Shown: positions 2,091-64,000 of the stretch, piece after piece
Position numbering within the stretch: the stretch's first letter is position 1
Layout: each line of letters begins with the position of its first letter
NCBI GenBank assembly: GCA_020632015.1
Contig: JACKGI010000001.1
Span: 87,574 to 151,573, forward strand
Source: Candidatus Nomurabacteria bacterium
GTDB taxonomy: Bacteria > Patescibacteriota > Minisyncoccia > Phycocordibacterales > UBA918
Length of the DNA: 64,000 nucleotides
Direction of reading: 5' to 3'
Translations under genes and position numbers: made by a program
The notes under the pieces: model-generated
What the model saw: only the letters and a program-made list of their open reading frames with translations
Told to the model about the DNA's origin: nothing
Databases searched by the model: none

Positions 2091-2092
2091 AT

Positions 2093-2734: not shown

Positions 2735-2737
2735 TCT

Positions 2738-4650: not shown

Positions 4651-4652
4651 AT

Positions 4653-5702: not shown

Positions 5703-5751
5703 AAAACACCGAACATTCCATTGTTCGGCGCCAATAATCAGAAGTTCAGCA

Positions 5752-6111
5752 CTAATTCCCAGTGCTGGCTATGTCAGGCCTTTGATAAATGTGACATAAA
5801 TATGTCATCCCGACTTGGACCCTTCTATCTTTTGGGCCAACAAGGTTGTTCATGCGCCTGAAATTCTCTTCAGTTCCGCCGCAATGTCGGACAAACTCAG
5901 AAATAAGCTCTGGGCTCTCTGCCCTTAAAAAGCGAGCGTTGTAGTGAACATTTCTACAGTTTGTACAGGCGTATTCAAGTGAATCCATATCTACTTTCTC
6001 CACCTGTATTTTGAAGCCAAAATCGTAGCTGATTGCTGGGGTACTTTCCAACGCCAGCATGAAGGCTGTGATGAGTGCGGCCAACATCGCCGCGAGTTTT
6101 TTGCTAGCCAT
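5752..6111 (-). CDS. small secreted protein, probably acquired (SD-led, GC-richer, antisense to cluster)
   Basis: Start chosen at MASKKLAAMLAALITAFMLAL (signal-like). AGGAGG at 6117-6122 lies 5 nt upstream. The track ORF extends to 6255 without support. Confidence 0.5.
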   Translation of the reverse strand: MASKKLAAMLAALITAFMLALESTPAISYDFGFKIQVEKVDMDSLEYACTNCRNVHYNARFLRAESPELISEFVRHCGGTEENFRRMNNLVGPKDRRVQVGMTYLCHIYQRPDIASTGN

Positions 6112-6306
6112 ATCGGCCTCCTGCGCATAGCGCGTTATTTCTATGAAAATCAACGAACTCATTTCGTGTGCGAAATGCACACCTAATTTATTTATAACAC
6201 GTTGTGGATAACCCGCAAGGGCAGGGAAGGTGCTTTTTTGACACCCTTTCCCCAAATTAACTAATAGTGGGCCTAAGCAATGTTTTAGTCTGATATTATT
6301 ATAAGT

Positions 6307-7281: not shown

Positions 7282-7282
7282 T

Positions 7283-8473
7283 ATGAAACGTCCACTCATC
7301 ATAATCATCGGGGTAGTACTAGTCTTTATTTTGATAGGCGCTTGGATGTATGTGCTTTTCTTTATGGAAAGTAGCGACACGAATACTTTTGCTGATTTGA
7401 ATTTTGAAAACTCTACTGAAGAATTTACTGAAGTAGAAAATATGGGTGGAGGAGAACCAATAGTTAATGTCAATGATTTATCGAGATTGAGACAACTGAC
7501 CACCACACCAGTAGTTGGTTTTCAGGAAGTTATGAAAAACTCCAGCTCAACTCCTTTGGTTTATTACATCAGCGCTGGTACTGGACATATTTTCTCTATT
7601 GATTTAGAAACCGGTGAAGAAAAAAGAGTTTCTGGTACTACTATCCCAAGTACCGAGTCTGGAGTAATTACACCAGATGGACAGTACGCACTGATTCAAT
7701 CTGGTTTTGGTTCAACTAAAGAAGCGACTGTTGGTATGATTTCGGCTGACGAAGATCAATTGGTTGGTGAAGTCACTCTAAATAATATTTATTCTTTTAG
7801 TGAAACTGCTAGTGGCACATTTTTAATTGCTAGGAAATCAGACAATAGTGTTTCTGCTTCGCACTACCTACCAGCTAGTGGGGAGGAGGTAAGCTTATTC
7901 TCAGTTCCTTTTGGAGAAGTGGTAATAGATTGGGGTACACAAGCCACAGACAATCACTATCTTTACCCGAAGCCAAACAGTTTGCTTGAAGGGTATTTGT
8001 ACCAAGCCTCCAACAAGGGCATTAAAAGACTGCCAGTCGATGGTTTTGGACTCTCCGCCAAAGGAAGCAATGATTATGTAATCAGTAGCTCGCAGGCTAA
8101 CAAAAAATACAGTACTCAGATTTTAAATATGTCAGAAAATTTTGTTAGTAATTACCGTCTTGATGTAATGCCTGAAAAATGTGTTTCTTTGTCTACTAGA
8201 CTTTCTTTTATTTGTGGAATTTCAGATTCGCCAAGCTACTCTCAACAAACACCTGATGACTGGTATCAAGGTACAGTTTCATATAATGATGATTTACTAG
8301 AAATAAATCTTAAAGATGGAGTAAATTCATACCTCCTAGACATTGAGGAGGAGAGTGGAAGAATTTTGGACATCACTAATTTGGAAACCAACCAAGATGA
8401 TTCTCGACTTTACTTTATTAATAAAAATGACGGCACTCTATGGTCTTATCTATTAACTGAGAATAATAATTAA
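7283..8473 (+). CDS. N-terminally anchored extracytoplasmic protein (possible beta-propeller-like repeats)
   Basis: 396 aa. TM helix LIIIIGVVLVFILIGAWMYVLFF. Starts 2 nt after the upstream stop. Confidence 0.5.
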   Translation: MKRPLIIIIGVVLVFILIGAWMYVLFFMESSDTNTFADLNFENSTEEFTEVENMGGGEPIVNVNDLSRLRQLTTTPVVGFQEVMKNSSSTPLVYYISAGTGHIFSIDLETGEEKRVSGTTIPSTESGVITPDGQYALIQSGFGSTKEATVGMISADEDQLVGEVTLNNIYSFSETASGTFLIARKSDNSVSASHYLPASGEEVSLFSVPFGEVVIDWGTQATDNHYLYPKPNSLLEGYLYQASNKGIKRLPVDGFGLSAKGSNDYVISSSQANKKYSTQILNMSENFVSNYRLDVMPEKCVSLSTRLSFICGISDSPSYSQQTPDDWYQGTVSYNDDLLEINLKDGVNSYLLDIEEESGRILDITNLETNQDDSRLYFINKNDGTLWSYLLTENNN

Positions 8474-8476
8474 TTT

Positions 8477-9910
8477 ATGAAAAGAACACTAATTAAATTC
8501 TTACCCATAATAATCCTCTTTATTATTCCCATCCTTAGTTTCGCTCAAGAAACAGTTGGTTACACTCCGCTTGTTGGACTTCCAGGTGTAGCTGATTCAA
8601 ACGGCTCTGGTGAAGTTGATTTTGAAAAGTTCATCAACACTTTGTATTACATGTCTATTGGGGTAGCAGCTCTTCTGGCGGTAATTAAAATTGTGATTGC
8701 GGGAGTGAAGTACATGCTGAGTGATGTTGTAACCACAAAAGGTGAAGCAAAAAATGATATCAAAGGTGCTCTAATTGGTCTCTTAGTAGTGATGGGGGCG
8801 GTTTTAATCCTTACTATAATAAACCCACAACTTGCAAATATTGACGCTGAGTTTGATAGTACAAAGACTGAGATACCTGAGTATGTTCCTCAAGTAAACA
8901 ACCAGCGTTTTGGTCCACTTGGAACTATGCTTCCAGGAGACGTTCCTTACCCTATACCCTCTACTGTATTAGCCAGTTCTCCTGCACCAGAAGGCCTTAA
9001 TGATTTGGAAAAAGCACAGTGGGTTTGTGAAAACCAAGTACTTGATGAAGAAAATAAGTACTGCCCATTAGGACAAAAGAACTCTCAAGTTGCACCAAAT
9101 CTACCTAGTCAGTCACTAGCTTATTGTTATGTTGGTGAGTGGGATGCTTTTGGTGAAAAATGTGTTGTGAGACAAGCTGATATAAAAAACTTTGAAGAGT
9201 CTGGTGGGGGAGTTGGTGGAACAAAAACCGTAACTGAAAGTGAGTTTAGTAGTGAGATGGGTAGTAAAGAATTAGAACCACCCCCAGAAAGACCAATTGA
9301 TGAAACAGCATCACTTTGTCCGGCTGGAACAACTGAAATACCATCTGCTTATAAATACCCACCAAGAAACGGAGTGGTGAATCCTATAACTGGCGACTAC
9401 ACAGACTGTGAACCAAATCCAGACACTTATGGTACATATGGAACAGGTTCTAACGGCGTCTGCCCAGCTGGCCACGACACCATCTACGATCCAGCCGAAT
9501 TAATAGACCCAGACACAAACACCTATGGCCCAACACCCGCACCAAGATGTGTACTATCTGAAGGAGGGAGTGCAAGTGGAGGTGGTGGTTACAACACCTC
9601 TTGTGTAGCAGCCGCTTGTTGTAATGTTGGAACTATTCAATCTGGAGCAAGACCAGGAGAACCAGCGGTGTGTGTAGACTCTAGTGGTAATGTTGTTGGT
9701 GTTCCTGAAACGTCAAATAATTCTGGAACAGGTGGCGTAGGGACAACTAACCCTTGCCCTCCTGGACAAATACTAGATCCTTCATTGAATGGACTATCCT
9801 TAGGAGGAATTAGTTGTGTTAACGATCCAAGTTTAACTCAAGACGAAATAAATGGAGCACTTTTTTGTGCCGCCCTCGGCAAAAGATATTCAAACGGAAC
9901 TTGTATATAA
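8477..9910 (+). CDS. T4SS pilin-like (VirB2/TrbC-type two-helix N-terminus) fused to a long Cys-rich C-terminal region
   Basis: Signal peptide, then FEKFINTLYYMSIGVAALLAVIKIVIAGVKYM...IKGALIGLLVVMGAVLILTIINP (two TM helices with a charged loop). About 350 aa with more than 20 Cys and G/P/T-rich stretches follow. Confidence 0.5.
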   Translation: MKRTLIKFLPIIILFIIPILSFAQETVGYTPLVGLPGVADSNGSGEVDFEKFINTLYYMSIGVAALLAVIKIVIAGVKYMLSDVVTTKGEAKNDIKGALIGLLVVMGAVLILTIINPQLANIDAEFDSTKTEIPEYVPQVNNQRFGPLGTMLPGDVPYPIPSTVLASSPAPEGLNDLEKAQWVCENQVLDEENKYCPLGQKNSQVAPNLPSQSLAYCYVGEWDAFGEKCVVRQADIKNFEESGGGVGGTKTVTESEFSSEMGSKELEPPPERPIDETASLCPAGTTEIPSAYKYPPRNGVVNPITGDYTDCEPNPDTYGTYGTGSNGVCPAGHDTIYDPAELIDPDTNTYGPTPAPRCVLSEGGSASGGGGYNTSCVAAACCNVGTIQSGARPGEPAVCVDSSGNVVGVPETSNNSGTGGVGTTNPCPPGQILDPSLNGLSLGGISCVNDPSLTQDEINGALFCAALGKRYSNGTCI

Positions 9911-9914
9911 CTAA

Positions 9915-9955
9915 CAAAACAAAAAAGCGCAACCGGCGCTTTTTTGTTTTGTTTT
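9915..9955. terminator. bidirectional terminator between convergent genes
   Basis: aaaaaagcgcaaccggcgctttttt with A/T tracts on both sides. Confidence 0.6.
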
Positions 9956-9976
9956 TAATTTAGTATTCAACAATAC

Positions 9977-10705
9977 TTAACGATGTTTTTTAACGAAGTA
10001 CTCCTGAGAAATCATAGTTAGGTTGCTAACTACAAAATACAAAGCAATTGCTGCTGAAATTGTATAAGCCACTACTGTAATCAATACCGGCATTACAAAC
10101 CTCATTTGTGTTTGCATATTGCGCATAAAATCATCTTTCAAATTAGGTGCTGCCCCCTCTTCTTTTGGAGGTAGTTTTGGCATAGTGAGATTTACATGAA
10201 TAAATTGAGTAACACCAGCAATTAAAGCTAGAAATAAACTCCGTTCACTAATGTCGATAATACTTAGAAAGTTCATGGTCACAACCACTGGTTCGGACAC
10301 GAAGGAATATAGCAGGTCTATATTTATGTCCGGTAAAGGTACACCTCCTCCTTTGTATACTGAGAAATACAAAGCAATCACGATTGGGATTTGAAGGAAG
10401 ATTAAAAAAATACTAGCTAGTGGGTTCATTCCTGCTTCTTGGTAAATTGCCAACATGGCTTGGGACTGAGCTTGTTTGTCGTCTTTGTGTTTTTCTCTAA
10501 CCTCTTTAAGTTTTGGCTCGATTTCCCTCATTACTTTTTGGGTTTTTACCGCCTTAATCGAAACAGGAAGAAGGATTGTTTTCACAAGTAAAACAGTTGC
10601 AATAATTGCTAAACCAACATCTCCACCGGGAATAATATCAATAAAAAAAACCAGTGTGTTATAAACTGGGTCGAAAAATAAATTGTGCCAAATTGAACTA
10701 AACAT
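9977..10705 (-). CDS. yidC: membrane protein insertase YidC (short form)
   Basis: 242 aa polytopic protein in the conserved rpmH-rnpA-yidC order. LLVKTILLPVSIK and MNPLASIFLIFLQIPI are YidC/Oxa1-like segments. Confidence 0.85.
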   Translation of the reverse strand: MFSSIWHNLFFDPVYNTLVFFIDIIPGGDVGLAIIATVLLVKTILLPVSIKAVKTQKVMREIEPKLKEVREKHKDDKQAQSQAMLAIYQEAGMNPLASIFLIFLQIPIVIALYFSVYKGGGVPLPDINIDLLYSFVSEPVVVTMNFLSIIDISERSLFLALIAGVTQFIHVNLTMPKLPPKEEGAAPNLKDDFMRNMQTQMRFVMPVLITVVAYTISAAIALYFVVSNLTMISQEYFVKKHR

Positions 10706-10717
10706 AATTTCCTTATT

Positions 10718-11053
10718 CTACGCACCTTTCACCACTTCAGCAATTGACTCTTGCACAAACTCCTCGGCTGTTTTTCTAGTTAGAGAATTAAAACTTGGTT
10801 TAAGCACCACAATCAAAACACCTAGAGGATTTGTTGGTGTGTCTAATTTCTTTAGCACGGCATAAACCCTTCTCCTTAATGTGTTTCTTCTAACAGCACT
10901 TTTAGCAACTTTTTTACCAACCACTACTGAAACTTTTGTTTTTTCTTCTTCTTTAGAACGAATAATGGTTAGGTGGGGGAAGTGTTTTTTATTGCCAGTC
11001 CTAAAATATTCAGAGAATTCAGATTTTGATAATCTGTTTGATTTTTTAAACAT
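10718..11053 (-). CDS. rnpA: RNase P protein component
   Basis: Basic ~111-aa protein between rpmH and yidC, with an RNR-like motif (VRRNTLRRRVY). ATG at 11053 is preferred over the TTG at 11068 in the track. Confidence 0.8.
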   Translation of the reverse strand: MFKKSNRLSKSEFSEYFRTGNKKHFPHLTIIRSKEEEKTKVSVVVGKKVAKSAVRRNTLRRRVYAVLKKLDTPTNPLGVLIVVLKPSFNSLTRKTAEEFVQESIAEVVKGA

Positions 11054-11096
11054 AATTACTTGAATCAATTGATTATGTCACAAAACAAAAAAAGCT

Positions 11097-11246
11097 CTAT
11101 TGAGCTTTTTTTACTGTAAGTTGTGCACGACCTTTTCGGCGACGAGCTTGGAGTATCTTACGACCAGCAGTGGTTGCTGAACGAACTAAAAACCCGTGGG
11201 TGGTAGCACGCTTTCTCTTACTTGGTTGGTAGGTTCTTTTTGACAT
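11097..11246 (-). CDS. rpmH: 50S ribosomal protein L34
   Basis: Hand translation gives [49 protein letters not shown] (49 aa). It is below the ORF-track length cutoff. Confidence 0.9.
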
Positions 11247-11319
11247 ATCTGTAGAATTAGTACTTGGGAACTATACAGGAATATTTAAAAAATTCAATAG
11301 TGGGGGAGGTTGTTTAGAG

Positions 11320-11423
11320 TTGTTCACAGTTTATACACAGTTGCGTTTTTTGATTCTTAAAAAGGGTTTTTAAAATCTGAAATTTTTGAAAAAGATTTAC
11401 AGTTTTCCACACAGAGGTATAAT
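11320..11423. promoter_or_regulatory. DnaA-box-like sites and dnaA promoter
   Basis: ttgttcaca 11320-11328, ttatacaca 11331-11339 and ttttccaca 11403-11411, compared with the consensus TTATCCACA. TATAAT at 11418-11423. Confidence 0.5.
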
Positions 11424-11452
11424 GCAATTCACTGTTCGAGTTTACATAAGTT

Positions 11453-12838
11453 ATGAATCCAATTTCTCACTCACCATCCAACAATAGTATCGTTCAAACT
11501 GAACAAGTAGATGTTAAGCAATTGTGGGATGATGCTTTAGTTAAGATTGAACTCTCTATTACTACAGCCAACTTTAAGACTTGGTTTCGTGACACACACA
11601 TCGTCTCTCTTGAGGATGGCACAGCAACTGTTGGTGTACCAAGTGTTTTTGTTAAAGACTGGTTGCAAGATAAATTCCATAACATGGTTCTTAAAACGCT
11701 TCGTGACCTTACTCCACACGTAAGAAGTGTTGAATATACCGTTGCTCAACGAAATGAAAGAAAGCGAGAATCAAACAAAAATCAAACAGTAAACGCTTCT
11801 CTTCCTTTGGAAGACTATTATATAAACAAAAGTGACAACCTAAATCCAAAGTATTCTTTTGAAAATTTTGTAGTTGGACCATATAACGCCTTGGCTCATG
11901 CGGCAGCAAAAACAGTTAGTGAGAAGCCAGGTATCACATATAATCCACTGTTTATTTATGGTAAGACTGGCCATGGTAAGACCCACCTTATCCAAGCAGT
12001 AGGGAACCAAATAAAGAAAACTGGTAAGAAGGTATTTTATGTTACCAGTGAACGGTTTGCAGTTGATTACTTCAACTCACTCCAAAACGGAACGGCTAAT
12101 AATTTCAAAGATCGTTATCGTCAATATGATGTTTTGATTATGGACGATGTTCAGTTCTTGGCAACTAAAGAAAAGACTCAGGAAGAACTTTTCCATCTTT
12201 TTAATGCACTACACGACACAAACAAACAAATCGTTTTCTCTAGCGATCAACACCCAGCTCTTTTGAATGGGATGGAAGAAAGACTTCAGTCTCGATTTGC
12301 TCAAGGTATGATTGTTGACTTACCGGCTCCAGATTTGGAATCTAGAGCAGCTATTCTTAGGGCAAAATCTGCTCAAAACAACATAACCCTTCAAGATGAC
12401 GTGGTTGATCACTTAGCGCAGAGTATTGAGGGTAATGTGAGGGAGTTGGAAGGGGCTCTTAATACCATCATGTGCCAATCCCAGCTCCTTGGACGAACTT
12501 TATCAATTGATGAGGTTAGAACTATTATCAAAAATAGTTCTCGACCAAGAAAAACTCTAGCTATTGCTGATGTAGTTGACAAAGTTGCTCGATACTACGA
12601 TATAGACCAGGCAAGTATCTATGAAAAAACTAGACGGAAAGAGGTTGTTAAACCGAGGCAGATAATTATGTATATTTTGAGGGAAGATTTTCAGGTTTCT
12701 TACCCTGCTATCGGAAAGAAGTTGGGAGGTAGGGACCACACAACAGTAATTCACTCCTGTGAGAAAATTAAAGCTGAATTAAAAGGCAACTCTGAACTTG
12801 AAGAGGAGATAACTCAAGTCAGACTTCTCTTGAAATAA
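11453..12838 (+). CDS. dnaA: chromosomal replication initiator DnaA
   Basis: Walker A GKTGHGKTHL, Walker B IMDDVQFL, and C-terminal DNA-binding helix region GGRDHTTVIHSCEKI. Confidence 0.95.
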   Translation: MNPISHSPSNNSIVQTEQVDVKQLWDDALVKIELSITTANFKTWFRDTHIVSLEDGTATVGVPSVFVKDWLQDKFHNMVLKTLRDLTPHVRSVEYTVAQRNERKRESNKNQTVNASLPLEDYYINKSDNLNPKYSFENFVVGPYNALAHAAAKTVSEKPGITYNPLFIYGKTGHGKTHLIQAVGNQIKKTGKKVFYVTSERFAVDYFNSLQNGTANNFKDRYRQYDVLIMDDVQFLATKEKTQEELFHLFNALHDTNKQIVFSSDQHPALLNGMEERLQSRFAQGMIVDLPAPDLESRAAILRAKSAQNNITLQDDVVDHLAQSIEGNVRELEGALNTIMCQSQLLGRTLSIDEVRTIIKNSSRPRKTLAIADVVDKVARYYDIDQASIYEKTRRKEVVKPRQIIMYILREDFQVSYPAIGKKLGGRDHTTVIHSCEKIKAELKGNSELEEEITQVRLLLK

Positions 12839-26255: not shown

Positions 26256-26462
26256 TAATCATTACTTTGTCGTCACGAGTTACTAACCAGAATCATTCGC
26301 TACGCTCTGATTCTGCTAAGTACTCTCGACCCCGGCTCGCTGTTCGCCGCCTTAGGAAAGGGCGACTCACAACGCTCCGCCTCGGACAGACGCCGCGAGT
26401 GACATTGGTCACTCGCTAAATGAAAACACCAGTCATGTGACTGGTGTTTTCATTTGCGTCTG
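26256..26462 (-). repeat. GC-rich tRNA-3'-flank module E1 (downstream of tRNA-Lys)
   Basis: Hairpin 26421-26455. tcactcgctaaat (26409-26421) is shared with E3. The 36-mer at 26283-26318 is 34/36 identical to E2 (40194-40229) in the same orientation relative to the tRNA. Confidence 0.5.
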
Positions 26463-26535
26463 TCCGCCCTCAAGGGCTCGAACCTTGGACCATCTCCTTA
26501 AAAGGGAGCCGCTCTACCAACTGAGCTAAGGGCGG
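26463..26535 (-). tRNA. tRNA-Lys (anticodon UUU)
   Basis: Hand-folded cloverleaf: acceptor CCGCCCT/AGGGCGG, D arm GCTC..GAGC, anticodon loop CTTTTAA, T arm CAAGG-TTCGAGC-CCTTG. No encoded CCA. Confidence 0.9.
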
Positions 26536-26700
26536 GAATATTTATTATATCCACCATCTTCTTAATTAAGGGGTAGATAGTGCGGGGCACTGTCTACGCT
26601 ACTGAACTAAGACTAAGGGCGGGAATATTTATTATATCCACCATCTTCTTAATTAAGGGGTAGATAGTGCGGGGCACTGTCTACGCTACTGAACTAAGAC
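26526..26700. repeat. 2 x 87-bp perfect tandem repeat covering the tRNA-Lys 5' end and upstream region
   Basis: 26526-26612 equals 26613-26699. Each unit carries the first 10 nt of the tRNA plus TATAAT-containing upstream sequence and a degenerate D-arm-like tail, actgaactaag. Confidence 0.9.
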
Positions 26701-26803
26701 CAGCGGATATCTTTGCGAAGCAAAGTGGGGAAACTATAACATGATGGTTGCTAAAATCAACACTATTGGTTGCAACTCCACCTGCTTCTGCTACTCTTCT
26801 GGC

Positions 26804-39886: not shown

Positions 39887-39927
39887 GATGACACTAAATT
39901 ATCTTTGTGATAATATCGCTGGCACTT

Positions 39928-40002
39928 GCTCCCGTAGTTTAATGGATAAAATATTGGTTTGCGGTACCAGTGCTCCAGGTTCGATTCCTGGCGGGAGCAC
40001 CA
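39928..40002 (+). tRNA. tRNA-Arg (anticodon GCG), CCA encoded
   Basis: Acceptor GCTCCCG/CGGGAGC, anticodon stem TTGGT/ACCAG, loop TTGCGGT, T arm CCAGG-TTCGATT-CCTGG, ACCA end. Confidence 0.85.
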
Positions 40003-40264
40003 ACAGCCGACCCCGATGCGCATGCATCGGGGTCTTTGCTGATGGTAGCTACTGACAGAAATCGAACCGAGTCGCGACGAAGTCCACAGGCGAAGCCGAG
40101 GACCGCGACGAGTGGAGGTCAATGGAGTGAGATATTTTGTGACGACAGGAAACAAAATATCCACGAGAGTGACCGATTCCTGGCGGGAGCACGTAGCAGA
40201 ATCAGAGCGAAGCGAATGATTATGGTTAGATAAAATTTTCTGGGAGAAAGTTTTATCTAACCAT
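40003..40264 (+). mobile_element. GC-rich tRNA-3'-flank module E2, bounded by a 19-nt direct repeat of the tRNA-Arg 3' end
   Basis: cgattcctggcgggagcac occurs at 39982-40000 and again at 40174-40192. There is an 11-bp hairpin at ~40009-40034, a 36-mer (40194-40229) shared with E1, and a 14-bp hairpin at 40222-40264. Confidence 0.45.
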
Positions 40265-47081: not shown

Positions 47082-47165
47082 AGTATTTTGGAAAATAAAA
47101 TCCATTTCTAACAACCTTACTGCTTATGAAACAAGAAAAAATGCCCGCAAAGCGGGCTAACTAAT

Positions 47166-47356
47166 GTGCGCGATGAGAGACTTGGCGCCAGTTCTAAACT
47201 CGTCATTCTTCCTTGTTAAGAACTCGCTGCCCCGGCGCTCAAATCGTCCTCACTTCGTTCCGGGCGATAAATTCGCTTTCTTCAAGTCTCCCCTCACTCG
47301 CTAAATCTGAGACACAATAGACCCCAGACTATACAGTCTGGGGTCTATTGGTCTAG
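47166..47356 (-). mobile_element. GC-rich tRNA-3'-flank module E3, bounded by a 19-nt direct repeat of the tRNA-Val 3' end
   Basis: gtgcgcgatgagagacttg occurs at 47356-47374 (tRNA) and at 47166-47184. A 15-bp hairpin sits at ~47317-47349. tcactcgctaaat (47294-47306) is shared with E1. Confidence 0.45.
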
Positions 47357-47429
47357 TGCGCGATGAGAGACTTGAACTCCCGACCTTCTCGGTGTAAACG
47401 AGCTGCTCTACCAACTGAGCTAATCGCGC
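47357..47429 (-). tRNA. tRNA-Val (anticodon UAC)
   Basis: Acceptor GCGCGAT/ATCGCGC, D arm GCTC..GAGC, anticodon loop TTTACAC, T arm GGGAG-TTCAAGT-CTCTC. 73 nt, no CCA. Confidence 0.9.
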
Positions 47430-57965: not shown

Positions 57966-58601
57966 TTACTGATACTCATCAGTGTATGACATCTCTGTGG
58001 TCGTAACACACACTAATCTTGCGTCACCTTGTTCTATTTCAAAAGTAACATTGTACTTTGCATATGATATGAACTTACGCGTACCTTCAGCATTTACACT
58101 GGTGTTACTTGGTTTCCCAAGCTTATTAACAATTCTCTCTTCGCTATCATATTTACCTAACCCCATCACTTCTCTATAGCTATTTTCAGAGCAAATTCGA
58201 CGAACCTTATCATTCTCATCGAATACTATAATGTAGTCTATACCACTGTATCCATTGTAAATATAGCCTTTTTCTCCCTCGTCATTAATCCTTTCATCGT
58301 TAGGTTTTCCTAACTCGAGAGTAACGTCAACTGGCTTCATACCAAGAGATATTGAACCAAGAGTATCCATCTCTCTAGGTAAATCTTTGTACCACTGATA
58401 AGCAAAACCAATGATACTAATACCAACAATGAGCAAGATAAAACCAAGGACTACCTTCAATAGTCTACGCCAAATACTAGACTTCTTTTTTGTTGCTGGG
58501 GCTGTCTCTGATTTTGTTGGAGTAGAACCAACTTTGTGGCCACATTCTATGCAAAAAACTGCATCTTCTTTATTTTTGGCACCACAGTTCGAACAAAACA
58601 T
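57966..58601 (-). CDS. zinc-ribbon / single-TM / extracytoplasmic-domain protein (operon gene 7)
   Basis: MFCSNCGAKNKEDAVFCIECGHK. TM helix LLKVVLGFILLIVGISIIGFAY. Confidence 0.6.
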   Translation of the reverse strand: MFCSNCGAKNKEDAVFCIECGHKVGSTPTKSETAPATKKKSSIWRRLLKVVLGFILLIVGISIIGFAYQWYKDLPREMDTLGSISLGMKPVDVTLELGKPNDERINDEGEKGYIYNGYSGIDYIIVFDENDKVRRICSENSYREVMGLGKYDSEERIVNKLGKPSNTSVNAEGTRKFISYAKYNVTFEIEQGDARLVCVTTTEMSYTDEYQ

Positions 58602-58618
58602 ACATTCAATTTCTTACA

Positions 58619-59833
58619 TTAAAACAAGCTTTTAATAAAACTAAAGAACTTACTAATCAGACCTTCCTTGAAGCGAGGGACTTCTGCTGGCTCGTTATCT
58701 TCTTGGGGTGAGGTTAATTCCTCTGAAGGTTGTTGCTCAATAGTCTCTTCTTCCTCTGTATTGTTCACGTCATTCACAATATCCTCACTTATTGTTTCTG
58801 GTTCACTGTAAGTTTTAGTAACAGAGGTCGGTTCAGGAGTGTAGGTTGGGGTTGGTGTAGGCACATATTCCTGAACAGGTGGCGTATAGGTGTATGCTTC
58901 TAACTCTTCAGGAAAACTATCGTCAGAGGTCCATTCTACGCTCATTATGGAGCAATTTTGGTCGTGGTTAGGTAAAACCAAAGTATCAAACATATCAACT
59001 GAAAAATCAGTTCCCATATTGATTACCAAACTCAACCCCTCATATGTCTCAATGGCATAATCCCAACAACCGATACCATACTCAATGATGTAATTCTGGT
59101 AGTCGTGCTGGCTTTGGACCAGTAATTCGTCGCCATCATCACTTATGTCGAGGAGTGTGAAATAGGCACTATTATGCTTCTTGACGCAGTGTAAATCGTC
59201 ATCAAAAGTATATCCATCGTCACACTCGCATTTGTTCGACAAGCTATTGTATGAAGCATAGATACCGTGGTCATTGCTACATACCGTATCTCCGTACGTA
59301 CATTTGCCATTATCTATAATGTATCCAGCCGAACATTGGCACTGGTCACCATATGTTGCTCTTGAATGAATACCTAATTGGTCCTTACACGCTTGGTCGT
59401 CTGTTATACATTGACCATTGTCACCCCAGACATATCCATAGCTACATTCACAGGAACCTGACAAATTGTCGTATTCCGAACCGTAACCATATTTATCGTG
59501 ACAAACTGTGTCTCCGTCTACACACTGCTTATCTCCAAAGATACTTGTGCCGAATACATATCCATAGCGACATTCACATCCTCCTGAATAATTTGATTTT
59601 GCATTGTATCCATAATCATCTTTACAAGCTTGGTCCTCAGTAATGCAATATGCGTCACCCATGAAATTTGTACCCATTACGTAACCAGCCATACATTTAC
59701 AGTAGCTCCCACTTTCATACGCCATTCCATACTCACTGCATGAACCATACTGAGCACTCACTGTGCCAGTTGTTGTATATAGACCTCCCGCAAAAGAGAT
59801 TAGTGCTATTAAGATGATGAGTATATTTTTCAT
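58619..59833 (-). CDS. secreted protein with ~6 EGF-like Cys-rich repeats (operon gene 6)
   Basis: Signal peptide. Repeating C.C..GY......C......C....G units. P/T/E-rich linker and amphipathic C-terminus KFFSFIKSLF. Confidence 0.6.
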   Translation of the reverse strand: MKNILIILIALISFAGGLYTTTGTVSAQYGSCSEYGMAYESGSYCKCMAGYVMGTNFMGDAYCITEDQACKDDYGYNAKSNYSGGCECRYGYVFGTSIFGDKQCVDGDTVCHDKYGYGSEYDNLSGSCECSYGYVWGDNGQCITDDQACKDQLGIHSRATYGDQCQCSAGYIIDNGKCTYGDTVCSNDHGIYASYNSLSNKCECDDGYTFDDDLHCVKKHNSAYFTLLDISDDGDELLVQSQHDYQNYIIEYGIGCWDYAIETYEGLSLVINMGTDFSVDMFDTLVLPNHDQNCSIMSVEWTSDDSFPEELEAYTYTPPVQEYVPTPTPTYTPEPTSVTKTYSEPETISEDIVNDVNNTEEEETIEQQPSEELTSPQEDNEPAEVPRFKEGLISKFFSFIKSLF

Positions 59834-59835
59834 AA

Positions 59836-61551
59836 TTAATATGCTTCAAAAGTATCATAAATCTGTTCAATTTGAACGTCATCAGATAAATCAAAGTTAA
59901 AGTCACCATTTTCGGTGAAAATAACTATTGCGTATTCTTCACCTGCGTTAGTTTGTCTTTGTAAGAGTATCTCAGAAGGAACTAGTCCTTGGGACTCACT
60001 AAAACGTACAGCTCCCAGTAAATATCTAAGCTCACCATCTACATATTCTCTTACGGCTAGCCACCCCTCACTAATAGGGTAGGTGGCGTTGTCTATCTTT
60101 ATGGTCGTACCTGCGGGCTGGTCTGAGACTATTATTTCACCATCACCAATTTCTATTTCTGATGTAGTCTTATCATTTGTTACAGTTTCCGGTTCAGTAT
60201 CCTTTTCAAAAATTGATTGATGAATATATCCATTGACTAAGGACCCGTAGTCATCTCGTGCTTGCACCTTATACCAAGAACCAGACTGCCCAATAAGCTC
60301 AACACTTGCACCTTCAGCATAGTATCTAATCACTTCGCAGTCGGTAGAAGCACAACTACGCAATGCCCCCGGGACCTCCAAGACAATCGTCTTTGTTGGT
60401 ACAGTATCAGCTCTACCATCGTCTATATTCTCAGACACAAGGTTAGGAGTTTCTACGATGTCATTTTTTTCATAGTATTCCTGCAAATCATCCTCTACAG
60501 CTAAGTCAAAATCAAAGACAAACTCTGCATCAATAATTTCACCAAACAACTCCTGATTTACATCTTCATCATCGTAGTAGACAGCTGTTGGCACGCCCAC
60601 ATAGCAACCATTACTATCTACCGCCAAACCACCAGAATTACCGCTCACAATTTTTGCTGAAGTGACTATGTATCCATCTTGGGAATACAAACTACTCACT
60701 AAACCGTTTGTGATAGTTAGTGAGCCACCGCTTAATGGTGGGTAGCCCAAAATAAGCAATTCACCACCAAGCTGTGTTTCTGTACTTAAACATTCATCAG
60801 TGTGTTCAAAATAAGGGAAAGTGCCATTTGCAACTTTATCATAATATCCATATAAGTTACCTTCTTCATCGAAAATTGGTCTTTCTATAGCCAAATACGC
60901 AAGGTCGTGACCAGTTTCATCAGCTTTGTCAGTGATAATTGTGGTCCAGTATGCTTCACGTATCAGACCAGATTTAGGGTCAGGAAAGCCGACCATACAA
61001 GCATCTTCAGGTAGCCCTTCAACAACGTGGTAGTTAGTAAGTACGTATCCAGCAGAGTCTAAGTTTGTCCCTGAACCATAGTAAATATAGTCATCGTCTT
61101 CACACACAATTTTAACCACAGAAGCATATGTTCTGTTTTCGTCAGTTACAGGTGTCTGTTCAACATCGAGGTACTTTATGTGTGAAAACCACTCGTCTGC
61201 ATTAATGTCGGCATTCATTAGACTAACGTCATCAAAGTATCCAATTGGCTCCATCAGGGGACCAAGTTCATTGAGGGCAGTAACATACTCTTCTTCATCT
61301 GAACTAGAGCCATCTGACGATGTGTCGTATGAGCCATTATTCAACAACATATATCCGACAAAGCTAATCATTCCTATGGCAAAGACAGCCAAAAGATACT
61401 TTGCTACTGGAAATGGAGCGGTAGGAGAAGATGTTGTTTGTATAGGGGCATTCGTAAGAGGAATACTTTCATTTTCAGACACTGTCTCACCACAGTGTAT
61501 GCAAAACTTATCTTCTTCATTTAATTTTTCTCCGCATTTTTCACAGAACAT
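59836..61551 (-). CDS. zinc-ribbon / TM / trypsin-like serine protease / SH3b-like protein (operon gene 5)
   Basis: MFCEKCGEKLNEEDKFCIHCGET. TM helix. LTNYHVVEG (His) and SGNSGGLAVD (Ser). SWYKVQARDDYGSLVNGYIH is SH3-like. Confidence 0.7.
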   Translation of the reverse strand: MFCEKCGEKLNEEDKFCIHCGETVSENESIPLTNAPIQTTSSPTAPFPVAKYLLAVFAIGMISFVGYMLLNNGSYDTSSDGSSSDEEEYVTALNELGPLMEPIGYFDDVSLMNADINADEWFSHIKYLDVEQTPVTDENRTYASVVKIVCEDDDYIYYGSGTNLDSAGYVLTNYHVVEGLPEDACMVGFPDPKSGLIREAYWTTIITDKADETGHDLAYLAIERPIFDEEGNLYGYYDKVANGTFPYFEHTDECLSTETQLGGELLILGYPPLSGGSLTITNGLVSSLYSQDGYIVTSAKIVSGNSGGLAVDSNGCYVGVPTAVYYDDEDVNQELFGEIIDAEFVFDFDLAVEDDLQEYYEKNDIVETPNLVSENIDDGRADTVPTKTIVLEVPGALRSCASTDCEVIRYYAEGASVELIGQSGSWYKVQARDDYGSLVNGYIHQSIFEKDTEPETVTNDKTTSEIEIGDGEIIVSDQPAGTTIKIDNATYPISEGWLAVREYVDGELRYLLGAVRFSESQGLVPSEILLQRQTNAGEEYAIVIFTENGDFNFDLSDDVQIEQIYDTFEAY

Positions 61552-61555
61552 ACAC

Positions 61556-62263
61556 TTAATATTTATTAAACTCTGATGGACTAATTGTGTTGGTTTCTGC
61601 ATTACCGCCAACTCTTTCTCTTAGGGATACTTCCCAAATTGTTGTTTGGGAAGAAGTTGTTTCAAAGTCGAATGTGTCCTCGAAGGTTTCGTAACTTTGG
61701 TTTTTGTTAAAGCTTTTTGTATTAGAGTTCCAGTCTGAACCTTGAGTAAATATGAGTTCATAATTGCCGTCGGAAATGCCAGTAATGGTATACGTACTTT
61801 TTGCTTTAATGTATACAGAATATATAGCAGTGTTACCTCGAATGAGCTTTGCAACAGCGTCGTATTGGGTCCCATTGTCTATCTCTAGGTCACCTTGACC
61901 AGATAGGTAATAGTCACTTTTTTTAAAAACAGTACCATTTGCTAAAGATACATCAAAAGCGCTAGTATCTATAGTGCTTTTAGGGGGAGGGGTGTATGTG
62001 TTGTTGTACGAGTTATTACTTGAAGTAGAACTTCCGCTATCTGAAAATAGCCAGAAAAGAAAAAATATGAATATTATTGCCCATACCCAACGACCCCAAT
62101 TGGATTTGTTTTTTTGTGAGAGTTTTGAGTAATCGTACGAGCTTTGAAGTGGTGTTGAATAAGTATTTTCAGTAGAACCATTTGGTTTATTGTGTGGTGA
62201 GCCGCAGTATTTGCAGAACTTAACTGAATCACTTATCTCTTTTCCGCAATTCTTACAAAACAT
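61556..62263 (-). CDS. zinc-ribbon / single-TM / beta-rich ectodomain protein (operon gene 4)
   Basis: MFCKNCGKEISDSVKFCKYCGSP. TM helix WVWAIIFIFFLFWLF. S/N-rich linker. Confidence 0.6.
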   Translation of the reverse strand: MFCKNCGKEISDSVKFCKYCGSPHNKPNGSTENTYSTPLQSSYDYSKLSQKNKSNWGRWVWAIIFIFFLFWLFSDSGSSTSSNNSYNNTYTPPPKSTIDTSAFDVSLANGTVFKKSDYYLSGQGDLEIDNGTQYDAVAKLIRGNTAIYSVYIKAKSTYTITGISDGNYELIFTQGSDWNSNTKSFNKNQSYETFEDTFDFETTSSQTTIWEVSLRERVGGNAETNTISPSEFNKY

Positions 62264-62265
62264 AA

Positions 62266-62742
62266 TTATTTTTCAGTGCTAGAGCCACAAGAGCCACAAA
62301 ATTTTGCTTTAGTGGTTACTTCCTTACCGCATTCGCTACAGAATCGCTTGCTTGAATCAGGAGTGTCAATTCTCACTGTCTCAGGTTCAACATCATGAAC
62401 TTTAACTGCTTCTGTGGGGGCAGTATTCCCGTCTAGAGACAGAACTCTTCTCTGGTATTCTTCTTTTGTTATCTGGCCTTCCACTAGCTGCTGATTCAAC
62501 TCAGCTAAAGGTTTAATGCTAGATATTTGTTCCGAATTCAATGTGATTCCATATTCACAAATTGGACAAGCTAGATGGTATTTATTTTCGTAAGGGAAAA
62601 TGGGTATAAAAAATAAAGTGAACCATACTCTGATTCTGGTAAGAATCCAATATTCCTCATTGTTGCAGTGAGAACAATGTTGTTTAAAAGCAGGTCCAAA
62701 TACCTTTCTTGTTGTGTGACCCCATCCGAAAAAAATTGGCAT
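62266..62742 (-). CDS. membrane-hairpin Cys4 protein with SHOCT-like helix and C-terminal zinc ribbon (operon gene 3)
   Basis: CSHC...CPIC flanks WFTLFFIPIFP. QITKEEYQRRVLSL is SHOCT-like. RFCSECGKEVTTKAKFCGSCGS. Confidence 0.55.
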   Translation of the reverse strand: MPIFFGWGHTTRKVFGPAFKQHCSHCNNEEYWILTRIRVWFTLFFIPIFPYENKYHLACPICEYGITLNSEQISSIKPLAELNQQLVEGQITKEEYQRRVLSLDGNTAPTEAVKVHDVEPETVRIDTPDSSKRFCSECGKEVTTKAKFCGSCGSSTEK

Positions 62743-62745
62743 ATA

Positions 62746-63204
62746 TTATTCTTTAATTAACCACTTATCCTTGTTGTCACCATAGGCAACGAAATAAATC
62801 ACTCTTTGAATGATGCCAAAATAAATTGGAAATAGTAGGAAATAGGTTGGTATAGAAACGACCCATCCGACAACCATCACAACTCGGTGCCATGCTTTGT
62901 CATACTTTACTTTGGGGTAGATTAGTCTCCATAGCTTATAAAAGCCATTCATTTCTTGTCGGGCAAGATACTCAGTGTGGCTTGGGGCACTGGAGGGTGC
63001 GTCATTTTCGCCATTGGCTGGAGTACCACACTCGGTACAAAACTGACACCCGTCATCAATTTTTTGACCGCAGTTTGTACAAAATTCACTCCTCTCATTA
63101 GTTTCTGTGCTGGTGGTAGAAGTTTCTATATCATGCTTTTCACCGCAGTTGGTGCAGAAATTTTGATTTTTATTTAACTCGTTACCGCAATTAGTGCAAA
63201 ACAT
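62746..63204 (-). CDS. double zinc-ribbon protein with C-terminal membrane segment(s) (operon gene 2)
   Basis: FCTNCGNELNKNQNFCTNCGEK and FCTNCGQKIDDGCQFCTECGTP. The segment VVMVVGWVVSIPTYFLLFPIYFGII is hydrophobic. Confidence 0.55.
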   Translation of the reverse strand: MFCTNCGNELNKNQNFCTNCGEKHDIETSTTSTETNERSEFCTNCGQKIDDGCQFCTECGTPANGENDAPSSAPSHTEYLARQEMNGFYKLWRLIYPKVKYDKAWHRVVMVVGWVVSIPTYFLLFPIYFGIIQRVIYFVAYGDNKDKWLIKE

Positions 63205-63207
63205 ATA

Positions 63208-63945
63208 TTAAAAATTAAGTTCATCTGGTAAAGGGCATCGTTCCAGTGTACATTGTTGCATATACACGTCCCATTCTTGCGATATTAGAAATGTAGCGTT
63301 TTCGTCACGCTTATCTGCTGCAAAGGAATTATAGTCACATTTCGGGTCTGAATCAGCAGGGTCCCAGCGACAGAAACCATAAGTTCTCCAATTAACAGTT
63401 CCAACTGAATTGCGCAAGACCTCACACTCCTTTTCGTTTTGTTGACTAATTTGGCGACAATAAGCCGCATCTTCTTGTTGCACATACTCATTAACCCATA
63501 CTTCTTTTTTCTCTAGCTCATCTGCCCGTTTCCAATACACACAATCCTCAATACCTTTTTGGCTATTATAATTCGGATACTTATTCAAGTAACAAAGCCT
63601 TTGCTCTTCAATAGCTTCTGCAATAGTCTGTGCCTCAGCTTCATTCATGAGAGATAAAATAGAATTACTGCTCTCTAGCATCTCGGCTCGTATAATAGCC
63701 TCTTCATATTGTCCACTAATTACAAGATTTTTAACTGCCTCCAGGTCCTCTTGGTGTTGGCGGTCAACAAAGTAATAACCACCTAAAACTACTAAGCCGA
63801 ACATTAAGAGTGCCATAAACACATATTTAGCGCGACTTATAATAGACGAGTTCTTAGACTTGAATTGCTTTAAGGTTTCGCCACACTTAGAACAGAAGCT
63901 TGCTTCTGCTTTATTTTTCTCTCCACATTTATTGCAAATATTCAT
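63208..63945 (-). CDS. zinc-ribbon / single-TM / Cys-containing ectodomain protein (operon gene 1 within window)
   Basis: MNICNKCGEKNKAEASFCSKCGET. TM helix YVFMALLMFGLVVLGGYYF. There are 8 or more Cys in the ectodomain. Confidence 0.55.
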   Translation of the reverse strand: MNICNKCGEKNKAEASFCSKCGETLKQFKSKNSSIISRAKYVFMALLMFGLVVLGGYYFVDRQHQEDLEAVKNLVISGQYEEAIIRAEMLESSNSILSLMNEAEAQTIAEAIEEQRLCYLNKYPNYNSQKGIEDCVYWKRADELEKKEVWVNEYVQQEDAAYCRQISQQNEKECEVLRNSVGTVNWRTYGFCRWDPADSDPKCDYNSFAADKRDENATFLISQEWDVYMQQCTLERCPLPDELNF

Positions 63946-64000
63946 AAATTAATTTGTGAAAGTTCCAGCTACGCGTTTTGATTTCTTCATATAAGCAATC

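What the first reader, a model, noticed from the sequence alone, without database searches (positions are those of the whole stretch)
39928..40264. tRNA-Arg(GCG) followed by a ~190-bp GC-rich module ending in an exact 19-nt copy of the tRNA 3' end
cgattcctggcgggagcac occurs at 39982-40000, inside the tRNA, running from T-loop C56 to the first nt after the discriminator. It occurs again at 40174-40192. The intervening segment is visibly GC-richer than the genome. It starts with an 11-bp hairpin (gaccccgatgc/gcatcggggtc) and holds no credible ORF. This is the attL/attR geometry of tyrosine-integrase insertion into a tRNA 3' end, but the 'element' is only ~170 bp and no integrase is in the window. 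The same architecture, size (190 vs 192 bp offset) and repeat boundaries (C56-N74) recur at tRNA-Val (47166-47374). A 36-mer just distal (40194-40229) recurs downstream of tRNA-Lys (26283-26318, 34/36 identical, same orientation relative to the tRNA). This suggests a family of miniature, integrase-less, cis-mobilisable (CIME-like) elements or a conserved tRNA-trailer RNA, rather than random decay.
Basis: partly seen in the sequence, partly recalled or inferred. Interest (0 to 1): 0.6.

Follow-up and report, generated by a model that had tools for sequence, protein, structure and literature searches.

The report
tRNA-tail copying structured RNA cassette
The repeat after tRNA-Arg is the closing stem of a folded, non-coding ~170-base module that sits behind many tRNA genes in Patescibacteria, carries both a copy and an antisense copy of that tRNA's 3' end, matches no Rfam family, and piles up at tRNA genes by insertion.

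Summary

The repeat is more than an att scar. Each module has four parts after the tRNA:
- a hairpin;
- a degenerate antisense copy of the tRNA 3' end;
- a conserved core of two helices, P2 (with a tandem G.A loop) and P3 (GGUC...GUGACC);
- the sense copy.

Antisense and sense pair as helix P1, giving a three-way junction.

A core motif hit at least 120 metagenome contigs. A covariance model found 121 modules in 0.55 Mb. Of these, 72 lie within 250 nt downstream of a same-strand tRNA, across 19 isotypes. Covariation is strong (94.9% paired against 73.6% shuffled). Nothing matched in Rfam, phage records, IMG/VR or the literature searched.

An ortholog (L036) shows that the distal 19-mer plus what follows is the original tRNA-Arg end with an older module. 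That older module is now decaying differently in two near-identical strains, so the module was inserted.

No integrase or other mobility gene is linked. The function is unknown. My best reading is a co-transcribed, retargetable structured-RNA cassette that accretes at tRNA 3' ends.

The parts
39928..40002 (+). tRNA-Arg(GCG); CCA not encoded
   Evidence: ARAGORN; Rfam tRNA, 61.9 bits; promoter-like site at 39888-39916.
39982..40000 (+). Proximal 19-mer S (tRNA C56-C74). In the insertion model this copy was supplied by the incoming module.
   Evidence: Exact repeat.
40009..40034 (+). 11-bp GC-rich hairpin with a weak U tail. It extends through trailer pairing (40004-40041). It is homologous to the hairpin of the B2 module at tRNA-Ser in L024.
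   Evidence: It does not pass the terminator scan.
40040..40068 (+). Antisense segment S', a degenerate reverse complement of the tRNA-Arg 3' end (G52/53 to C74) plus trailer. It forms the 5' strand of P1.
   Evidence: Self-inverted match; MFE pairing 40048-40063 with 40174-40189; compensated across four tRNAs.
40067..40115 (+). Helix P2: outer stem, GA/GA internal loop, inner stem with a GCGAAGC tip.
40117..40173 (+). Helix P3: GGUC...GACC base, conserved internal loops and a variable AU-rich tip. It ends in GAGAGTGAC immediately before the repeat.
   Evidence: The type-A model aligns end to end here at only 8.4 bits (E 0.015 in a 401-nt search).
40174..40192 (+). Distal 19-mer S, the 3' strand of P1. 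By comparison with L036 and L001 it is the original tRNA-Arg 3' end.
40194..40264 (+). Truncated older type-A module.
   Evidence: R1 hit at 40194-40227, 15.7 bits. It is identical to the P3 tip of the L036 module. A different remnant is present in L001/L002/L004.
47356..47429 (-). tRNA-Val(TAC), with proximal 19-mer at 47356-47374.
47166..47354 (-). Val module (BVal subfamily): hairpin 47310-47354, antisense 47284-47301, core 47185-47283, distal 19-mer 47166-47184.
   Evidence: Fold z = -7.3. Orthologous modules at tRNA-Val in L013 and L014, and related ones in L024. R1 scores 7.5 bits in register (E 0.022 in a 351-nt search).
47143..47157 (-). Canonical intrinsic terminator (GCCCGCTTTGCGGGC followed by ATTTTTT) just after the distal Val copy. 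It is probably the original tRNA-Val terminator.
26462..26535 (-). tRNA-Lys(TTT).
26268..26456 (-). Lys module (type A, short form): terminator hairpin 26418-26456, hairpin Hx 26395-26417, antisense 26383-26394 (reverse complement of CGGACAGACGC), core 26270-26385 ending in GTGAC, then GACA (tRNA N72-C74 plus one trailer base).
   Evidence: R1, 85.9 bits, E 1e-19; sequence.

Best explanation
The region is one member (subfamily 'B2') of a large family of about 150-190-nt structured, non-coding cassettes. They sit directly downstream of tRNA genes, on the same strand, in Patescibacteria.

A cassette has five parts:
1. a hairpin flush against the tRNA end;
2. an antisense copy of that tRNA's 3' strand (T-loop to C74, in type A split by a conserved hairpin Hx);
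3. helix P2 with a tandem G.A internal loop;
4. helix P3 (GGUC...GUGACC) with a variable tip;
5. immediately after GUGAC, a sense copy of the tRNA 3' end. This is either C56-C74 ('long form') or only N72-C74 ('short form').

Shown here:
- The antisense and sense copies pair as P1, which mimics the acceptor/T-stem stack of the neighbouring tRNA and closes a three-way junction.
- The scaffold is conserved with abundant compensatory changes.
- The tRNA-matching segments are re-written for each of about 19 tRNA isotypes.
- New cassettes lie next to the tRNA. Older ones are pushed outward behind a displaced copy of the tRNA end and then decay.

Inferred:
- The cassette is transcribed by read-through from the tRNA promoter and acts as an RNA.
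- It enters a tRNA gene by recombination through its own copy of the tRNA 3' end. The tRNA body serves as the left homology arm and the 19-mer as the right arm, which keeps the tRNA intact.
- Complementarity of the antisense segment is kept up by selection on P1 and/or by palindrome-templated correction.

What the RNA does for the cell or for itself is not established.
For: Family and structure:
Of 128 matches, 112 have GTGAC downstream of the motif, my proxy for module context.
- Model R1 finds 121 modules in 551 kb. On their alignment 94.9% of cells pair against 73.6% shuffled. 20 of 23 pairs have double-sided changes. The covariation score is 0.524, against 0.159 shuffled and at most 0.066 for slid controls.
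- P3 has an invariant G.U, so the folded strand is the tRNA-sense strand.

tRNA linkage:
- 72 modules lie within 250 nt downstream of a same-strand tRNA, across 19 isotypes. Another 17 are cut by contig ends and 8 are in arrays.
- In 35 long forms the copy starts at C56 in 33, and 16 are 18/18 identical to the tRNA over C56-N73.

Folds:
- Seven of seven long forms fold as hairpin + P1a + Hx + P1b + P2 + P3.
- The window's Arg and Val modules fold the same way, with z = -6.4 and -7.3.
- Four B2 members at Arg, Trp, Ser and a fourth, uncalled tRNA (L100, Ala-like 3' end) keep P1 by full compensation.

Insertion:
- L036 has tRNA-Arg followed by AGAGGCAGACGTAAGAATGACCC... and a type-A module. In L001 exactly this trailer follows the second 19-mer. 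L001 and the window retain different fragments of the old module.
- The same stratigraphy (B2 proximal, type A distal) is seen in L065, L100 and L024.
- Presence is patchy at orthologous tRNAs in 13 related genomes.

Co-transcription:
- The hairpins after tRNA-Arg and tRNA-Val lack U tracts, and the real terminator follows the distal Val copy.
Against: - There are no expression data. Many type-A members have strong A/U-tract terminator hairpins between the tRNA and the module, which argues against efficient read-through.
- P1 mismatches show no G.U-over-A.C bias (10 against 8). P1 complementarity could therefore be a DNA-level inverted repeat rather than an RNA helix.
- The antisense covers T54/T55 (and G52/53 in B2) plus the proximal trailer. 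It matches the intact tRNA better than it matches the distal copy.
- Recombination through a 19-nt arm, or a 3-6-nt arm in short forms, is inefficient. I have no direct evidence for any particular insertion mechanism.
- All strains of this species that I could sample carry the module, so there is no within-species presence/absence polymorphism.
- The polarity 'B2 gained' rather than 'B2 lost elsewhere' rests on parsimony.
Confidence: 0.55

Rival explanations
1. A host cis-acting RNA with no mobility of its own. The module would be a structured 3' trailer that evolved in place behind each tRNA, for example to control 3' processing, stability, termination or insulation of tRNA transcripts. The sense copy would exist only because P1 must compete with, or mimic, the tRNA 3' end. 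Turnover would be ordinary recombination between repeated modules.
For: - Orthologous Val modules in the window, L013 and L014 stay about 85% identical, with compensatory hairpin changes. These species have only about 75% PilM protein identity, so neutral DNA should be unalignable.
- A module displaced from its tRNA decays fast, as expected if function needs adjacency.
- No mobility gene is linked.
Against: - The same scaffold subfamilies (A, B2, BVal) recur at many different tRNA isotypes with re-written tRNA-specific segments. This needs transfer between tRNA loci.
- There are stacked generations and tandem arrays.
- Many orthologous tRNAs lack a module, so it is dispensable.
Confidence: 0.22
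2. A programmable guide RNA of an unlinked RNA-guided enzyme, comparable to a TnpB/IscB omega-RNA or an IS110 bridge RNA. The conserved scaffold would bind a protein encoded elsewhere. The antisense and/or the 3' 19-mer after GUGAC would be the guide that directs cutting or recombination at the tRNA gene, which would explain the retargeting.
For: - A conserved scaffold carries variable, target-matching segments at fixed positions. The 'guide' of 18-19 nt starts at a fixed junction after GUGAC in 33/35 long forms.
- Segments are retargeted across 19 isotypes.
Against: - No nuclease or recombinase ORF recurs within 3 kb of 120 modules. No autonomous version was seen.
- There are no Rfam omega-RNA-type hits.
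- A guide identical to the adjacent intact tRNA gene would self-target.
- Sense and antisense cover the same stretch of the tRNA. They do not cover the two target halves, as in bridge RNAs.
Confidence: 0.1
3. A SINE-like retro-element. Module RNA would be copied by a trans-acting reverse transcriptase at staggered nicks in the tRNA gene (55/56 and 74/75). The direct repeat would then be a target-site duplication of 19 nt, or 3-6 nt in short forms.
For: - The duplication has variable length and a fixed right edge near C74.
- The RNA structure is conserved, as expected if the RNA is the transposition intermediate.
- The tRNA is left intact automatically.
Against: - No RT is seen in the window or near the modules.
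- Group II introns are reported absent from Patescibacteria (PMC13011429).
- L086 has a distal copy belonging to a different tRNA, which a target-site duplication cannot give.
- The antisense copy is not explained.
Confidence: 0.07
4. Decayed scars of ordinary integrase-borne elements (prophages, ICEs or CIMEs) that had integrated into tRNA 3' ends.
For: - Direct repeat of the tRNA 3' end from the T-loop onward.
- An occupied site against an unoccupied site in relatives.
- Tandem accretion.
Against: - The size is the same (about 170-190 nt) and the folded scaffold is conserved in more than 120 loci.
- The repeat is different for each tRNA.
- No integrase is present.
- Nothing matched in 50,697 phage records or in IMG/VR.
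Confidence: 0.04

Closest known systems
tRNA-gene integration sites of integrative elements (attL/attR with T-loop-to-3'-end identity block; CIMEs)
   Same: - The tRNA 3' end is duplicated from the T-loop onward.
- The intact tRNA is regenerated on the proximal side.
- The original 3' end is displaced distally.
- Successive elements accrete in tandem.
   Different: - The element is only about 170 nt.
- No integrase is associated.
- There is no common att core, because each tRNA has its own repeat.
- The repeat pairs with an internal antisense copy inside a conserved, covarying fold.
Structured small repeats and MITEs of bacteria (REP/BIME, Correia, PATE/IS200-IS605 derivatives)
   Same: - Short and non-coding.
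- Many copies.
- Hairpin-rich.
- Mosaic and decaying copies.
- Probably dependent on functions supplied in trans.
   Different: - Strictly tied to tRNA 3' ends and co-oriented with the tRNA.
- No terminal inverted repeats of its own.
- Carries target-specific sense and antisense segments.
- Has a three-way-junction core with covariation, rather than one palindrome.
tRNA-like non-coding RNAs (bacterial Y RNA YrlA, mascRNA, plant mitochondrial t-elements) and functional tRNA trailers (3'ETS-leuZ)
   Same: - P1a/P1b reproduce the acceptor and T stems of a tRNA, and Hx emerges where the D and anticodon arms would.
- The module lies in the 3' external spacer of a tRNA transcript.
   Different: - There is no T-loop or D-loop mimic.
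- N73 and C74 are paired rather than free.
- It copies the neighbouring tRNA exactly instead of being a generic mimic.
- There is no Rfam hit (from memory, Rfam's YrlA family is included in that search).
- No Ro/Rsr context was seen.
Guide-RNA scaffolds with programmable segments (TnpB omega-RNA, IS110 bridge RNA)
   Same: A conserved scaffold of about 110-150 nt carries variable segments that match a DNA target at fixed positions, and the target is next to the RNA gene.
   Different: - No adjacent effector gene.
- Sense and antisense segments cover the same target stretch.
- The target, an intact tRNA gene, is retained next to the RNA.
Non-canonical tRNA introns and split or permuted tRNA genes of archaea
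   Same: The read-through transcript can fold as a tRNA with a 190-nt insertion at 55/56. The inserts are also specific to tRNA genes.
   Different: - This is a bacterium.
- The tRNA upstream is already complete.
- There is no bulge-helix-bulge motif.
- There is no group I intron signature. The known Patescibacteria tRNA introns are in the anticodon loop (PMC13011429).

Membership tests
Integrase-mediated integrative element / CIME at a tRNA gene | Direct repeats made of the 3' part of the target tRNA flank the element. | tested here: met
   Exact 19-mers at 39982-40000 / 40174-40192 and at 47356-47374 / 47166-47184.
Integrase-mediated integrative element / CIME at a tRNA gene | A tyrosine or serine integrase in the element, or in related autonomous elements that share the att site. 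| tested here: not met
   No integrase Pfam hit in about 55 kb of the window. No recurrent mobility ORF within 3 kb of 120 modules.
Integrase-mediated integrative element / CIME at a tRNA gene | One att core sequence shared by all members that one integrase mobilises. | tested here: not met
   The repeat is the 3' end of whichever tRNA is adjacent, across 19 isotypes.
Integrase-mediated integrative element / CIME at a tRNA gene | Unoccupied sites in relatives, with precise boundaries. | tested here: met
   L036, L013 and L014 lack the B2 module at tRNA-Arg. The L036 trailer equals the sequence after the distal 19-mer in L001.
MITE (non-autonomous DNA transposon) | Terminal inverted repeats, a fixed-length target-site duplication, and an autonomous partner. 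| tested here: not met
   The inverted repeat is tRNA-derived and internal. The duplication is 19 nt or 3-6 nt. No transposase partner was found.
Any Rfam 15 family (including tRNA-like RNAs, ribozymes, omega-RNA-type motifs and group I introns) | A covariance-model match. | tested here: not met
   Only the tRNAs reach gathering score. E<=10 searches of the three loci give only noise.
TnpB/IscB omega-RNA or IS110 bridge RNA | The RNA is encoded at the end of, or next to, its nuclease or recombinase gene. | tested here: not met
   No such ORF is present.
TnpB/IscB omega-RNA or IS110 bridge RNA | A conserved scaffold with variable, target-matching guide segments. | tested here: met
   The scaffold covaries. 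The segments match each tRNA. This is a resemblance only.
tRNA-like RNA processed by RNase P / RNase Z | Acceptor and T stem stack with a T-loop and a free discriminator and 3' tail. | tested here: inconclusive
   The acceptor and T stems are reproduced. However, T-loop bases 56-60 are paired, there is no T54/T55, and N73/C74 are paired. Cleavage is not testable here.
Intrinsic terminator (first hairpin after tRNA-Arg and tRNA-Val) | A GC-rich stem followed by a U tract. | tested here: not met
   The scan does not flag the hairpins after tRNA-Arg or tRNA-Val. The only canonical terminator lies after the distal Val copy. Many type-A relatives do have A/U-tract hairpins.
The new tRNA-trailer three-way-junction family defined here (model R1, type A) | A match to the core model directly downstream of a same-strand tRNA. 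| tested here: met
   Lys module: 85.9 bits. Arg remnant: 15.7 bits. The Arg (B2) and Val (BVal) cores score only 8.4 and 7.5 bits, but in exact register (E 0.015 and 0.022 in 401- and 351-nt searches). They are linked to type A by weakly scoring modules: R1 gives 42.7 bits for the L018 Ser module and 21.6 and 17.8 bits for the L024 BVal modules. Shared architecture also links them.

The most novel reading that the evidence does not exclude
A protein-free, retargetable genetic element specialised on tRNA 3' ends. It would be a conserved RNA scaffold that carries a sense and an antisense copy of its target. It would copy itself into tRNA genes without disrupting them and re-write its target-matching segments when it moves to a new tRNA. 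This would be a new kind of mobile or selfish RNA-structured cassette in CPR bacteria.

A variant of the same reading: the RNA releases, at the fixed GUGAC|C56 junction, a spare tRNA 3' fragment used for tRNA repair or as a decoy against tRNA-targeting toxins.
Probability: 0.3. Interest if true: 0.9.

Novelty: categorically new. Interest (0 to 1): 0.78.

Why it matters
If this holds, about half of the tRNA genes in at least one lineage of Patescibacteria drag behind them a conserved, folded RNA that copies the tRNA's own 3' end in both orientations. In this window it is 3 of 6.

That would add three things:
- a new abundant RNA class in a phylum whose RNA biology is barely charted;
- a new way for a genetic element to use tRNA genes as landing sites, with no integrase and a target copy built into an RNA helix;
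- a natural example of a scaffold whose target-matching segments are re-programmed across about 19 tRNAs.

It also has practical consequences:
- These modules create 19-nt repeats and long palindromes that break short-read assemblies.
- They can be mistaken for prophage att sites.
- They may mark recombination hot spots. Module mosaics, swapped P3 helices and one chimeric locus (L086) point that way.

Tried and rejected
- **Rfam.** I searched at gathering score and at E<=10 on all three loci. Only tRNAs and noise came back.
- **Known ribozyme cores.** By eye, the junction strands (AA / G / none) do not fit the hammerhead CUGANGA...GAA core. The group I (omega-G, U at the 5' splice site) and group II (GUGYG...AY) boundary rules cannot be satisfied in any register of the repeat. 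This is sequence reasoning, not a tool result.
- **Protein-coding reading.** The ORFs over the module overlap the tRNA. Conservation follows helices, and indels are not in threes.
- **Phage or plasmid origin.** There is no blastn match in the phage collection. The IMG/VR motif hits (1 and 6) have no module context and no model match. The plasmid collection was not searched.
- **Linked mobility gene.** Clustering 382 ORFs around 120 modules gives only MiaA-, LepA-, CCA-enzyme- and YraN-like neighbours (names from my reading of the sequences).
- **PBS-like priming by mature tRNA.** The antisense continues into the genomic trailer, not into CCA.
- **G.U-bias test of P1** to separate an RNA helix from a DNA repeat. 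It was underpowered and flat.
- **Within-species empty site.** All 10 contigs with the flanking gene carry the module.
- **Literature.** They found nothing on such an element. The only tRNA-related Patescibacteria paper concerns group I introns at 35/36.

Full report
**1.

ARAGORN and Rfam find six tRNAs in the window. They include tRNA-Arg(GCG) at 39928-40002 (+), tRNA-Val(TAC) at 47356-47429 (-) and tRNA-Lys(TTT) at 26462-26535 (-).

The 19-mer CGATTCCTGGCGGGAGCAC occurs exactly twice, at 39982-40000 and 40174-40192. The Val 19-mer occurs at 47356-47374 and 47166-47184. Segment 40194-40229 matches 26318-26283 at 34/36. Both 19-mers run from T-loop C56 to C74.

The other three tRNAs (Ser, Arg-TCT, Leu) are followed by a terminator hairpin only.

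The locus is not an assembly artefact. The window's allele recurs at 99.6-99.8% identity in three ENA assemblies. A second allele with the same tRNA, module and second 19-mer occurs in six more contigs, including GCA_020632115.1.

**2.

Right after the first hairpin, each module contains a degenerate antisense copy of the same tRNA 3' end:
- Arg: GGTAGCTACTGACAGAAATCGAACC, against the reverse complement of GGTTCGATTCCTGGCGGGAGCACC.
- Val: GGAGACTTGAA.
- Lys: GCGTCTGTCCG.

Folding the Arg and Val modules pairs this antisense with the distal 19-mer. This helix (P1) closes a junction with two further helices (P2, P3). The z-scores are -6.4 and -7.3.

**3. It is a family.**

Thirteen orthologous loci from related Patescibacteria MAGs show similar modules behind tRNA-Val, Ser, Lys, Arg and Leu, in a patchy pattern.

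Of 128 matches, 112 have GTGAC downstream of the motif, my proxy for module context.

I built a covariance model (R1) from 52 cores. It finds 121 modules in 551 kb. On their alignment:
- 94.9% of cells form pairs, against 73.6% in shuffles;
- 20 of 23 pairs show changes on both sides;
- the covariation score is 0.524, against 0.159 shuffled and at most 0.066 when partners are slid.

P3 contains an invariant G.U pair, so the folded strand is the tRNA-sense strand.

Of the 121 modules, 72 lie within 250 nt downstream of a same-strand tRNA of 19 isotypes. Another 17 are cut by contig ends and 8 follow another module. Of the 24 'orphans', about half have a T-loop-like motif roughly 100 nt upstream, which probably marks tRNAs that ARAGORN missed.

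Nothing matches in Rfam, in phage records or in IMG/VR, where the motif hits have no module context and no model match.

**4. Anatomy.**

Seven of seven long-form members fold the same way:
- a hairpin flush against the tRNA end;
- P1a, the anti-acceptor segment paired with copy positions 66-74;
- a conserved hairpin Hx;
- P1b, the anti-T-stem/loop segment paired with copy positions 56-65;
- P2, with an outer stem, a GGA/GA loop and a variable inner hairpin;
- P3, with the base GGUC...GUGACC.

P1a/Hx/P1b reproduces the acceptor stem, central arms and T stem of the neighbouring tRNA. There is no T-loop, and N73/C74 are paired.

There are two forms. In 35 'long' modules the copy after GTGAC begins at C56 in 33, and 16 are identical to the tRNA at 18/18 over C56-N73. 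In 33 'short' modules only N72-C74 (plus 1-3 further bases) of that tRNA follow GTGAC: CAC for most, GAC for Lys, CGC for Trp. The N72-C74 match was read by eye from the listing, because the script's own comparison was off by one position. In short forms the antisense equals the reverse complement of positions 69-74 plus the first trailer bases.

The window's Lys module is a short type-A member (85.9 bits).

The Arg module belongs to subfamily B2. This subfamily also occurs at tRNA-Trp (L065), Ser (L024) and a fourth, uncalled tRNA (L100, Ala-like 3' end). Partial copies are found at Phe (L041) and next to an Asp-like 3' end (L084). In the four full members P1 is fully compensated and P2/P3 are conserved.

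The Val module belongs to subfamily BVal, which is shared with L013, L014, L024 and others.

R1 detects B2 and BVal only weakly but in exact register (8.4 and 7.5 bits). Weakly scoring modules link the subfamilies: R1 gives 42.7 bits for the L018 Ser module and 21.6 and 17.8 bits for the L024 BVal modules.

**5. The module was inserted.**

L036, a metagenomic ortholog of the Arg-RuvX locus, reads as follows: tRNA-Arg, then AGAGGCAGACGTAAGAATGACCCACGAAAGTGGGTCATTCTTACG, then Hx, antisense and a type-A core whose P3 tip is CAGAATCAGAGCGAAGCGAATGATTATGGTTAG.

In L001/L002/L004 the second 19-mer is followed by exactly that trailer and hairpin, and then by a truncated module.

So the distal 19-mer is the original tRNA end with its older type-A module. 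That older module is decaying by different deletions in two otherwise near-identical strains. The proximal 19-mer, the hairpin, the antisense and the B2 core are the newcomer.

The same order (B2 next to the tRNA, type A outside) is seen in L065, L100 and L024. L024 tRNA-Ser carries three generations. Tandem arrays and chimeras exist in L029, L045, L073, L128 and L086.

**6. Mechanism.**

No integrase, transposase or RT is present in the annotated parts of the window. None recurs near 120 modules. The repeat differs for each tRNA. A classical integrase/CIME model therefore fails.

The hairpins after tRNA-Arg and tRNA-Val lack U tracts, and the canonical Val terminator lies after the distal copy. 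Co-transcription with the tRNA is therefore likely for these two modules. Many type-A relatives, however, do have strong terminator-like hairpins.

The thermodynamic optimum of the read-through transcripts pairs the tRNA 5' strand with the distal copy and pairs the proximal 3' end with the antisense. This shows that two conformers compete.

My best reading is a co-transcribed structured-RNA cassette. Its built-in copy of the tRNA end keeps the tRNA intact and provides the homology through which it enters tRNA genes. The scaffold is maintained by selection.

Which partner (host or element) benefits, and what moves it, remain open. The rivals are a purely host cis-RNA, a guide RNA of an unlinked enzyme, and a retro-element with target-site duplication. 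I score them in the rival explanations section.

**7. Open points.**

The notebook lists:
- the exact C56 boundary;
- the three-nucleotide copy in short forms;
- the antisense reaching T54/T55 and the trailer;
- the flat G.U test for P1;
- the chimeric locus L086.

The taxonomy of the metagenome loci was not determined. All 13 genome loci are Patescibacteria.

Noticed in passing
window 26535-26710 (minus strand, upstream of tRNA-Lys): An 87-nt tandem duplication covers the tRNA-Lys promoter region plus the first 9-11 nt of the tRNA. The junction lies at the microhomology CTTAG. Near-identical strains (L148-L150) have a single copy.
   Followed up: partly
window 1-12800: A type-IV-secretion-like cluster (TrbL_3, PrgI, TraC-like, VirB4-like ATPase, T4SS pilin) lies directly beside yidC-rnpA-rpmH and dnaA, that is, at the presumed replication origin. 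The annotation comes from Pfam hits on identical genes in L147.
   Followed up: no
window about 58600-64000: A run of six or seven adjacent paralogous genes on one strand, each with zinc-ribbon (Zn_Ribbon_1/DZR) hits. One also has a trypsin-like domain (L151 annotation).
   Followed up: no
L086:159-301 (-) and flanks: An intact type-A core follows tRNA-Arg(CCT), but its distal sense copy is that of a different Arg tRNA. It is followed by a P3 remnant of another subfamily. This looks like ectopic recombination between modules at different tRNA loci.
   Followed up: partly
L053, L057, L062, L076, L088, L097, L106: These modules have a sense copy ending in ...CATCTCCA(C), and ARAGORN calls no tRNA upstream of them. 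For L053 and L076 the contig ends too close upstream to tell. The undetected tRNAs may be the intron-containing tRNA-Asn/Asp genes reported for Patescibacteria (PMC13011429).
   Followed up: partly
L018:7655-7700 (downstream of tRNA-Arg GCG): This apparently 'empty' site still has CTAGTGCTCCTGC after its terminator. That sequence is an antisense-like remnant of the tRNA 3' end, so some empty sites may be fully decayed modules.
   Followed up: no
L161:1-900: One strain carrying the window-type Arg allele has a different gene (196 aa, no Pfam hit) where the others have RuvA, S20 and tRNA-Ser. This indicates a rearrangement just upstream of the locus.
   Followed up: no
window 47185-47230 compared with L013/L014 tRNA-Val modules: The orthologous Val modules share the hairpin, antisense and P2, but P3 is entirely different (GGGGCAGCGAGTTCTTAAC... 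against GGGGTCGCGTAACACAATATTTTG...). Helices are therefore swapped between modules, giving mosaic evolution.
   Followed up: partly
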